A DNA stretch of 222 nucleotides from Escherichia coli (GTDB lineage: Bacteria > Pseudomonadota > Gammaproteobacteria > Enterobacterales > Enterobacteriaceae), in the NCBI RefSeq assembly GCF_003334385.1, contig NZ_QOWN01000227.1; one strand, given 5' to 3'. This document shows positions 1-222 of the stretch, piece after piece. Position 1 is the stretch's first letter. Each line of letters opens with the position of its first letter. The notes under the pieces are model-generated. The model did not search any database. It was not told the DNA's origin and saw nothing but the letters and a program-made list of their open reading frames with translations. The translations under genes were made by a program, and so were the position numbers.

Positions 1-222
1 TGGCGGTCGTAGCGAAGGGCATCAGGCTGTTTGCGCATTGATGCCGAGATACGCTTCCAGTCTTCGCGGTCGTTGTCGATAACTTCATTTTTTGCCCAGC
101 GATGGATGCTGCCGTCAATGTTTCCGGCATCCACATCACCAGGCCAGAGAGCGTAGGCCAGTTCGTCATCCAGTGTTTTCCATGTCTGCTTGTATTCGCG
201 ATGAATGGCAGCAATGACCGGG
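1..222 (-). CDS. Internal fragment of a protein-coding gene, truncated at both window edges; hypothetical protein of unrecognised family. Codons run from + 221 down to + 3; 73 complete codons.
   Basis: Seen in sequence: the minus-strand frame is stop-free across the whole window while all three plus-strand frames are interrupted. The translation (PVIAAIHREYKQTWKTLDDELAYALWPGDVDAGNIDGSIHRWAKNEVIDNDREDWKRISASMRKQPDALRYDR) has a balanced, hydrophilic, globular-protein-like composition (10 Asp, 4 Glu, 7 Arg, 5 Lys, 4 Trp). Third-position choices resemble highly used enterobacterial codons. There is no in-window start codon with a convincing Shine-Dalgarno sequence, so the gene start lies beyond + 222 and the stop beyond + 1. 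Product assignment is not possible without a homology search. Confidence 0.72.

What the first reader, a model, noticed from the sequence alone, without database searches (positions are those of the whole stretch)
1..222. Entire window lies inside a minus-strand ORF that I cannot assign to a known family
The 73-aa translated segment is acidic/basic mixed and Trp-rich (W at 4 of 73 positions, in local contexts TWK, ALWPGD, HRWAK, EDWKR). I do not recognise it as any well-known housekeeping or phage protein. Codon usage looks enterobacterial, and many unrecognisable genes with host-like codon usage sit in prophage or defence-island accessory regions, but that is inference only. Nothing in 222 bp shows what system, if any, the gene belongs to.
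Basis: partly seen in the sequence, partly recalled or inferred. Interest (0 to 1): 0.35.

Follow-up and report, generated by a model that had tools for sequence, protein, structure and literature searches.

The report
Piece of a common prophage exonuclease gene
The window is an ordinary internal piece of a well-annotated exonuclease gene carried by lambda-like prophages in about three quarters of E. coli genomes; the stretch it encodes is a small helical domain, also found in the RecE recombination nuclease, whose job nobody has yet worked out.

Summary
The minus-strand ORF is real. The window encodes residues 234-306 of an 816-aa lambdoid-prophage "exonuclease" (WP_000048583.1 type, PHROG 2082). 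It is 100% identical to many E. coli chromosomes and to phages Evi and mEp460_ev081, and 3933 of 5426 complete E. coli genomes hold a match. The K-12 counterpart is the Qin pseudogene ydfE, cut by IS2 at a point inside this window.

The gene sits in the early-left operon (dicB/kil, ydfD, exonuclease, xis, int). It has a RecE-like non-catalytic N-terminal region, an acidic linker, a CxxC...CxxC zinc ribbon shared with Rac RecE, and a C-terminal DEDDh 3'-5' exonuclease (PF16473) where RecE has its PD-(D/E)XK nuclease. No RecT gene lies next to it.

The window covers about two thirds of a discrete ~97-residue module, predicted with confidence as a five-helix bundle. This module is the most widely shared part of RecE-family N-terminal regions and is joined to several different nuclease tails. 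It has no invariant polar residues and no convincing match to a solved fold, so I infer a non-catalytic adaptor or targeting role; that inference is untested.

Verdict: a known, common gene and not a defence-island novelty. Interest is low. The only open point is the long-unexplained function of the RecE N-terminal region.

The parts
3..221 (-). 73 complete codons, residues 234-306 of the 816-aa lambdoid-prophage exonuclease (ydfE-family / PHROG 2082). Window nt 222 is the last base of codon 233 and nt 1-2 are the first two bases of codon 307.
   Evidence: Translation; 100% identity to annotated CDSs; PHROG 2082 E 3.6e-52; pN/pS 0.28 in this frame.
183..221 (-). Residues 234-246: end of the flexible linker between the N-terminal head (aa 1-227) and the helical module, plus the conserved (H)T..TLD lead-in.
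   Evidence: AF2 model of aa 1-345: pLDDT <50 at 224-235 and low until about 240; column conservation.
150..182 (-). Residues 247-257: helix 1 of the module (TLDxEIAxAL motif; A255 is 92% conserved). The IS2E insertion that truncates K-12 ydfE after residue 256 maps to window nt 153/154.
   Evidence: AF2 secondary structure; conservation; partial matches ending at query nt 69 beside IS2, and ydfE alignment ending at aa 256.
114..149 (-). Residues 258-269: loop between helices 1 and 2, with the semi-conserved acidic D262-x-D264 pair (65-69% conserved).
78..113 (-). Residues 270-281: helix 2 of the module (A276 90% conserved, K277 62%).
33..65 (-). Residues 286-296: helix 3 of the module (aromatic at 288 and 291; L/M295, R296).
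3..32 (-). Residues 297-306: conserved P-G-I-L-x-Y-x-R turn leading into helix 4 (R306 81% conserved). Helices 4 and 5 of the module (aa 306-338) lie outside the window.

Best explanation
SHOWN. The window is an internal coding segment (residues 234-306) of an 816-aa exonuclease gene of lambdoid prophages and temperate phages of E. coli. [quoted passage not shown]

The protein is a mosaic with five parts:
- An N-terminal head (aa 1-227), distantly related to the RecE N-terminus.
- A flexible linker followed by a ~97-residue five-helix module (aa ~240-336). The window encodes the linker's end and helices 1-3 of this module.
- An acidic, probably disordered spacer.
- A CxxC...CxxC zinc-ribbon region, about 70% identical to Rac RecE residues 453-591.
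- A C-terminal DEDDh 3'-5' exonuclease domain (PF16473, catalytic D639/E641/D739/H789/D794). It replaces the PD-(D/E)XK 5'-3' nuclease of RecE.

No RecT or other annealase gene accompanies the gene. The module also occurs in K-12 RecE (aa 256-352). Across relatives it is fused to at least three kinds of tail: PD-(D/E)XK, DEDDh, and a phrog_7838-type 'exonuclease'.

INFERRED. The module is not catalytic. It has no invariant polar residues and is mildly acidic. It acts as a structural adaptor that targets or organises whichever nuclease tail is attached, by binding a common host or phage partner, by binding DNA ends, or by self-association. I put about 40% on this mechanism. It would be the same role that makes full-length RecE better than its bare nuclease domain at linear-linear recombination.

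The whole protein most likely trims 3' ends of DNA during phage early development. Alternatively it attacks DNA of a superinfecting phage.
For: Identity and distribution:
- Megablast finds 100% identity; 3933 of 5426 complete E. coli genomes match, with up to 6 copies per genome.
- 17 phage records match, including Evi, mEp460_ev081, HannyBb and Tritos.
- Full-length match to PHROG 2082, residues 1-816 against profile positions 1-823 of 823.
- K-12 ydfE is 89% identical over aa 1-256 and then cut by IS2E.

Gene context:
- L001, L002, L004, L005/6 and L008 all show dicB/kil, ydfD-like gene, exonuclease, xis/int.
- RecT is present only beside the PD-(D/E)XK-tailed relatives.

Domains:
- PF16473 at E 2e-65 over residues 635-806, and no PF06630 or PF12684.
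- Similar to T4 DexA, PDB 8KEL (identified via PMC12153337).
- RecE similarity over residues 262-618.
- NCBIfam RecE equivalog scores 260 bits against a cut-off of 1269.
- Catalytic and zinc-ribbon residues read directly from the sequence.

The module as a discrete unit:
- Domain-wise hits. A profile built from the module hits RecE 256-352 at E 1e-22.
- Architecture census of relatives. The RecE model hits the tail-divergent relatives only around the module.

Structure and composition:
- AF2 model of the module: pLDDT 88, pTM 0.81, five helices.
- AF2 model of aa 1-345: pLDDT 91 with a disordered segment at 224-235.
- No invariant polar residues; median pI 5.9.

Literature:
- The RecE N-terminal domain is 'of unknown function', and full-length RecE enhances linear-linear recombination (PMC11611040).
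- DnaQ-type nucleases near int, and 'RecE-2' proteins, occur in lambdoid phages (PMC12315714).
Against: No experiment on this protein or on the module was found.

A semi-conserved E253/D262/D264 acidic cluster could still bind a metal or a ligand.

The source genome of the window is unknown. Disrupted alleles exist: K-12 ydfE::IS2, and a 4-bp frameshift in PPompW phages. So 222 nt cannot show that this particular copy is intact.

The biological role of a 3'-5' exonuclease without an annealase in the early-left operon is not established.
Confidence: 0.85

Rival explanations
1. The gene is a prophage-encoded anti-phage defence (superinfection exclusion) nuclease of the 'HREX' kind. Its DEDDh tail would degrade modified (5hmC-type) DNA of incoming T-even phages, and the N-terminal region including the window's module would provide regulation or targeting.
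For: - The C-terminal domain is homologous to T4 DexA.
- An E. coli DexA homologue, EcD, protected cells against T4 and cut 5hmC-DNA but not unmodified DNA (PMC12153337).
- The DexA D169 equivalent is conserved here as D775.
- The gene is kept in about 73% of E. coli genomes, often within cryptic prophages.
- PADLOC gives a weak DEDDh hit, E 2.7e-4.
Against: - EcD is a different, short stand-alone homologue. Its cloning primers mismatch this gene at 4 of 17 and 8 of 20 bases.
- The residue whose absence defines EcD-type dimers (DexA D90) is present here (D711), and DexA W152 aligns to a Thr.
- The gene lies in the early-left lytic operon, not next to the repressor or in a moron position.
- It is frequently decayed.
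- No defence-system model matches the N-terminal region.
Confidence: 0.2
2. The module encoded by the window is itself a nucleic-acid-binding domain, for DNA ends or forks. It would hold the substrate for the attached nuclease rather than bind a protein partner.
For: - It is always fused to DNA nucleases and is followed by a zinc ribbon.
- Four semi-conserved basic residues: K277, R296, R306, R314.
- Full-length RecE specifically improves reactions between two linear DNAs (PMC11611040).
Against: - The module is net acidic in 79% of homologues, median pI 5.9.
- No helix-turn-helix or other DNA-binding family was detected by Pfam or PDB profile searches.
Confidence: 0.2
3. The copy sampled by the window is a decaying pseudogene in a cryptic prophage, so the sequence has no present function.
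For: - K-12 ydfE is cut by IS2 inside this very window.
- PPompW/Stx2a phage alleles carry a 4-bp frameshift.
- About 410 genomes have only partial matches.
Against: - The window itself has no stop or frameshift and is 100% identical to intact 816-aa genes and to functional phages.
- pN/pS of 0.28 shows that the family is under purifying selection.
Confidence: 0.15
4. The other fully open minus-strand frame (offset 2), or an antisense RNA or regulatory element, is the real feature.
For: The offset-2 frame is also free of stops.
Against: - The offset-2 frame has no PHROG hit at E up to 10.
- pN/pS is 1.28 in that frame.
- There is no Rfam hit, promoter, terminator or repeat.
- 26% of shuffles give an open frame by chance.
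Confidence: 0.01

Closest known systems
YdfE (b1577), Qin cryptic prophage of E. coli K-12
   Same: It is the same gene at the same position (dicF, dicB, ydfD, ydfE, int). It is 89% identical over residues 1-256.
   Different: ydfE is a pseudogene truncated by IS2E after residue 256, which falls inside the window (nt 153/154). It lacks most of the module, the zinc ribbon and the DEDDh domain. The window continues uninterrupted, so it does not come from the K-12 allele.
RecE / exonuclease VIII of the Rac prophage (NF007259; PF06630 + PF12684)
   Same: - It shares the ~97-aa module (RecE 256-352; profile E 1e-22).
- It shares the zinc-ribbon region (RecE 443-592).
- Its head domain is distantly related.
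- It has the same early-left, int-proximal location.
- The N-terminal region is of unknown function in both (PMC11611040).
   Different: - RecE's catalytic tail is a PD-(D/E)XK 5'-3' nuclease (PF12684, aa 615-850). Here the tail is a DEDDh 3'-5' nuclease.
- RecE is followed by recT. This gene is not.
- This protein scores 260 bits against the equivalog cut-off of 1269.
T4 DexA (PDB 8KEL) and E. coli EcD ('HREX'), Rv2179c-like DEDDh exonucleases (PF16473)
   Same: The C-terminal domain (aa 635-806) belongs to this family (E 2e-65; phmmer to 8KEL E 5e-7). All five DEDDh residues are present.
   Different: These are stand-alone proteins of about 180-230 aa with no RecE-like N-terminal region. The window is not part of the homologous domain. 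The EcD primers do not match this gene.
phrog_2489 / phrog_26058 proteins and the 'RecE-2' proteins of lambdoid phages (PMC12315714)
   Same: They have the same head + module N-terminal unit. They are described as distant RecE relatives of unknown role in the early-left operon.
   Different: Their tails differ: a phrog_7838 'exonuclease' or an unassigned tail in place of DEDDh. Sequence identity to this protein is 20-45%.

Membership tests
PHROG 2082 (lambdoid-phage 'exonuclease', ydfE-type) | End-to-end profile match | tested here: met
   Full protein residues 1-816 against profile positions 1-823 of 823, E 0, 1770 bits. The window peptide alone matches profile positions 234-306 at E 3.6e-52.
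PHROG 2082 (lambdoid-phage 'exonuclease', ydfE-type) | Location in a lambdoid prophage or phage early-left operon next to xis/int | tested here: met
   Five independent contexts.
RecE / exodeoxyribonuclease VIII (NCBIfam NF007259 equivalog) | Whole-protein score above the curated cut-off (1269 bits) | tested here: not met
   259.7 bits.
RecE / exodeoxyribonuclease VIII (NCBIfam NF007259 equivalog) | C-terminal PD-(D/E)XK nuclease domain (PF12684/DUF3799, RecE 615-850) | tested here: not met
   Absent from this protein. It is present in K-12 RecE.
RecE / exodeoxyribonuclease VIII (NCBIfam NF007259 equivalog) | Adjacent recT annealase gene | tested here: not met
   No RecT in L001, L002, L005/6 or L008. 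RecT is present next to RecE and P0187.
RecE / exodeoxyribonuclease VIII (NCBIfam NF007259 equivalog) | Shared non-catalytic N-terminal module and zinc-ribbon region | tested here: met
   Module profile hits RecE 256-352 at E 1e-22. BLASTP aligns residues 262-618 to RecE 278-591 at E 2e-56.
DEDDh (DnaQ-like) 3'-5' exonucleases, Rv2179c-like (PF16473) | Pfam domain match | tested here: met
   PF16473 at E 2.1e-65 over residues 635-806. This domain is outside the window.
DEDDh (DnaQ-like) 3'-5' exonucleases, Rv2179c-like (PF16473) | Five catalytic residues D-E-D-D-h | tested here: met
   D639, E641, D739, H789 and D794 are all present. They lie outside the window.
DEDDh (DnaQ-like) 3'-5' exonucleases, Rv2179c-like (PF16473) | Measured 3'-5' exonuclease activity | not testable with these tools
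   Needs biochemistry.
HREX anti-phage DexA homologues (EcD type; PMC12153337) | Loss of the tetramer-forming Asp (DexA D90) | tested here: not met
   DexA D90 aligns to D711 of this protein, so the Asp is retained. This rests on a single pairwise alignment.
HREX anti-phage DexA homologues (EcD type; PMC12153337) | Retention of the 5hmC-recognising W152 and D169 | tested here: inconclusive
   W152 aligns to T759, with a Trp three residues upstream. D169 aligns to D775. This rests on a single pairwise alignment.
HREX anti-phage DexA homologues (EcD type; PMC12153337) | Protection against T4 infection | not testable with these tools
   Needs plaque or growth assays.
Known anti-phage defence systems (PADLOC-DB 2.0) | Match of the protein to a defence-system component model | tested here: inconclusive
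   The only hit is a weak one to a CRISPR-associated DEDDh model (E 2.7e-4, residues 636-800). Nothing matches the N-terminal region or the window.
Newer Pfam families PF27430 / PF27432 (names unknown to me) | Precomputed hits on close relatives of the N-terminal region | tested here: inconclusive
   Both accessions are listed for relatives. From which fragments carry them, PF27430 lies within about aa 1-100 and PF27432 at least partly within about aa 100-238. I could not determine whether PF27432 reaches the window's module. The Pfam-A release available to me has no hit there, and no paper mentions the accessions.

The most novel reading that the evidence does not exclude
The ~97-residue five-helix module, two thirds of which the window encodes, is an exchangeable targeting cassette. 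Lambdoid phages would use it to deliver nucleases of opposite polarity (PD-(D/E)XK 5'-3', DEDDh 3'-5', phrog_7838-type) to one common partner or DNA structure. That would explain why full-length RecE outperforms its nuclease domain in linear-linear recombination, and would give the first function for the RecE N-terminal region.
Probability: 0.3. Interest if true: 0.45.

Novelty: already known. Interest (0 to 1): 0.15.

Why it matters
It matters little as a discovery. The gene is annotated in thousands of genomes and the window adds nothing to that.

There is modest value in the by-product. The analysis pins down a discrete, confidently folded module as the most widely shared piece of the functionally unexplained N-terminal region of RecE-family proteins. 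Full-length RecE is a workhorse of direct cloning by linear-linear recombineering. The analysis also shows that phages combine this module with nucleases of opposite polarity. That gives a defined construct (RecE 256-352, or residues 240-336 here) for deletion, swap and interaction experiments.

Tried and rejected
- Rfam on the window found no RNA family. Promoter, terminator and repeat scans found nothing.
- The alternative open frame has no PHROG hit and pN/pS above 1. Rejected.
- Pfam-A found nothing on the window's module, its 72 homologues, or the N-terminal region.
- PDB sequence and profile searches with the module and with aa 1-345 gave only chance-level hits. AcrIE7 at E 0.19 over 32 residues was rejected as noise, and the fold search did not support it.
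- PADLOC gave no defence-system assignment.
- I tested whether the experimentally studied EcD (HREX) is this gene. Its primers do not match, so it is not.
- Literature searches:
  - My first search was spoiled by prefix matching of 'RecE' to 'receptor'.
  - 'Rv2179c' + 'prophage' gave no papers.
  - 'PF27430/PF27432' gave no papers.
  - 'ydfE' + 'Qin' gave nothing functional.
  - No paper assigning a function to the RecE N-terminal region was found.

Full report
**1. The observation**

The 222-nt window has 54% GC. The four tryptophans sit in the stated contexts, and there are 14 acidic and 12 basic residues.

Two caveats apply. A second minus-strand frame is also open. In addition, 26% of shuffled versions of the window contain at least one fully open frame, so openness alone proves nothing. 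External evidence settles which frame is real:
- The peptide alone hits PHROG 2082 'exonuclease' at E 3.6e-52.
- The alternative frame hits nothing.
- Against a diverged allele (P0135, in locus L005), 34 of 54 nucleotide differences fall at third codon positions. pN/pS is 0.28 in the proposed frame and 1.28 and 1.62 in the other two.
- Nothing else is encoded in the window: there is no Rfam family, promoter, terminator or repeat.

**2. What gene it is**

Megablast finds the window at 100% identity in many E. coli chromosomes. 3933 of 5426 complete genomes hold a match, 3719 records match at 99% or better, and there are up to six copies per genome. It is also found in 17 phage records, including Evi, mEp460_ev081, HannyBb and Tritos. 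The annotated feature is 'exonuclease', '3'-5' exoribonuclease domain-containing protein' or 'exodeoxyribonuclease VIII'.

In strain E2865 (L001) the gene is 816 codons long and the window is residues 234-306. The neighbourhood is the int-proximal end of a lambdoid early-left operon: dicB, a DUF1482/ydfD-like gene, the exonuclease, DUF4224 (an excisionase-like gene), then integrase at the attachment site beside yccA. The same order is seen in phage Evi (kil, exonuclease, small ORF, integrase), in two metagenomic contigs and in PPompW/Stx2a phages.

In E. coli K-12 the counterpart is the Qin-prophage pseudogene ydfE (dicF, dicB, ydfD, ydfE, IS2E, intQ'). It is 89% identical over residues 1-256 and then cut by IS2E. 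K-12-derived genomes accordingly match only the first 69 nt of the reverse-complemented window. The IS2 junction therefore falls at window nt 153/154, and the window does not come from the K-12 allele.

**3. Architecture of the protein**

- Pfam-A finds one domain, the Rv2179c-like DEDDh 3'-5' exonuclease (PF16473, E 2e-65) at residues 635-806. All five catalytic residues are present: D639, E641, D739, H789 and D794.
- The closest solved structure is T4 DexA (8KEL; identified through PMC12153337).
- Residues 262-618 align to K-12 Rac RecE 278-591 (E 2e-56). The conservation is very strong over a CxxC...CxxC zinc-ribbon region (C544/C547/C555/C558).
- RecE itself has PF06630 at residues 2-178 and its PD-(D/E)XK nuclease (PF12684) at 615-850. 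Neither family is detected in this protein.
- This protein scores 260 bits against the NCBIfam RecE equivalog cut-off of 1269.
- recT follows recE in Rac, and follows a PD-(D/E)XK-tailed relative. No annealase gene follows the DEDDh-tailed genes.

So this is a RecE-like scaffold carrying a nuclease of the opposite polarity. By three defining features it is not a RecE. This fits a recent survey of lambdoid phages, which noted DnaQ-type nucleases encoded near int outside canonical Rec modules, and 'RecE-2' proteins of unknown role (PMC12315714).

**4. What the window itself encodes**

An exhaustive HMMER search with residues 1-345 found only 176 cluster representatives among 1.84 billion. The family is therefore narrow and essentially confined to enterobacterial phages.

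Domain-wise comparison shows that residues ~240-336 behave as an independent unit. Many relatives match only there. A profile of the unit hits K-12 RecE 256-352 at E 1e-22.

AlphaFold2 with a 72-sequence alignment predicts a five-helix bundle (pLDDT 88, pTM 0.81). A model of residues 1-345 (pLDDT 91, pTM 0.50) shows:
- an alpha/beta domain at residues 1-100;
- a helical domain at residues 105-227;
- a disordered linker (pLDDT below 50 at 224-235);
- the module at residues 247-338.

The window thus encodes the end of the linker, helices 1-3 and the conserved P-G-I-L-x-Y-x-R turn. That is about two thirds of the module.

**5. Architectures of the relatives**

Among the relatives of at least 450 residues, the module is preceded by a ydfE-type or a PF06630-type head. 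The two head profiles overlap in some proteins, so the heads are probably distant homologues. The module is followed by one of several tails: PD-(D/E)XK, DEDDh, a phrog_7838-type 'exonuclease', or an unassigned phrog_26058-type tail. In the tail-divergent relatives, the NCBIfam RecE model matches only around the module. The module is therefore the most widely shared part of the RecE-family N-terminal region.

**6. How it probably works**

No function could be read from similarity:
- Pfam-A and PDB profile searches are empty. The best hit, AcrIE7 at E 0.19 over 32 residues, is dismissed.
- Foldseek against AFDB50 returns only family members.

The alignment has no invariant polar residue; only two alanines are at least 90% conserved. 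The module is mildly acidic (median pI 5.9). Its semi-conserved polar residues (E253, D262, D264, K277, R296, R306, R314) are each missing in many members.

Together with the flexible tethers on both sides and the interchangeable nuclease tails, this points to a non-catalytic adaptor. It would target or organise the attached nuclease by binding a partner, by binding DNA ends, or by self-association. This is an inference, at roughly 40%. Direct DNA binding is the main alternative.

The inference is consistent with the literature. The RecE N-terminal domain is 'of unknown function' and dispensable for nuclease activity, yet full-length RecE enhances linear-linear recombination (PMC11611040).

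For the whole protein, a role in 3'-end processing during early phage development is the default, given its place in the operon.

**7. The defence rival**

A defence role is a live alternative. An E. coli DexA homologue (EcD) was shown to cut 5hmC-DNA and to protect cells against T4 (PMC12153337). However:
- EcD is a different, short homologue, and its primers mismatch this gene.
- The Asp whose loss defines the EcD type is retained here, and only one of the two 5hmC-recognition residues clearly aligns.
- PADLOC offers only a weak DEDDh hit.

**8. Verdict**

Its guess of 'prophage accessory region' is right in spirit. The gene is already known, very common and often decayed (IS2 in K-12; a 4-bp frameshift in PPompW phages). 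The only residual interest is the unexplained function of the RecE-family N-terminal module.

Newer Pfam accessions (PF27430, PF27432) are precomputed on relatives. I could not find their names, nor establish whether either reaches the window.

Noticed in passing
window nt 153/154 (minus strand, after codon 256); L004:6079-7549: In E. coli K-12 the orthologous gene is the Qin pseudogene ydfE. It is truncated by IS2E at a point that falls inside this window. K-12-derived genomes match only 69 nt of the window, beside an IS2 transposase.
   Followed up: yes
L008:2303-4770: In the Stx2a-converting / PPompW phages of EHEC, the same exonuclease gene (96.8% identical in the window) is annotated as a pseudogene frameshifted by a 4-bp deletion. 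So the gene is dispensable in at least some phages that are annotated as complete.
   Followed up: partly
L001:9303-11753 (protein residues 637-642): The DEDDh domain begins at an internal Met (M637, 'MIDLET'). This is the position where the experimentally studied stand-alone homologue EcD starts ('MIDTET', from its cloning primer). An internally initiated short nuclease isoform is conceivable but untested.
   Followed up: no
P0253 residues 52-143 and 177-248: One 248-aa relative carries two tandem copies of the window's module (E 2e-25 and 2e-12). This fits a self-contained, duplicable domain.
   Followed up: no
P0187 and other relatives; RecE 2-178 compared with residues 1-227 of this protein: Iterated profiles of the ydfE-type head and of the RecE PF06630 head hit overlapping residues in several proteins. 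The two head types are therefore probably distant homologues rather than alternatives.
   Followed up: partly
Relatives P0131, P0138, P0150, P0155, P0181 (C-terminal ~230 residues): Relatives with no Pfam-detectable nuclease domain match phrog_7838 'exonuclease' in their tails. P0126 instead has an unassigned phrog_26058 tail. So the 'RecE-2, no nuclease' class may include a third, divergent type of nuclease tail.
   Followed up: partly
L001:6505-6983 and 8833-9209; L004:1120-1873 and 5383-5798: The surrounding prophage region carries a RelB/RelE toxin-antitoxin pair, a YdaT-family gene and dicB. In K-12 Qin it also carries hokD and the DicF sRNA. These are the usual cargo of Qin/Rac-like prophages, upstream of the exonuclease.
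   Followed up: no
Module residues ~270-301 (window nt ~18-113): A module profile gives a weak hit (E 0.19, 32 residues) to the anti-CRISPR AcrIE7 in the PDB. The hit is at chance level, the fold search did not reproduce it, and I judge it to be noise.
   Followed up: yes
one search hit table: Most database relatives are 'partial' proteins that end at contig edges. This probably reflects multi-copy prophage genes breaking short-read assemblies, and it inflates the number of apparent fragments of the family.
   Followed up: no
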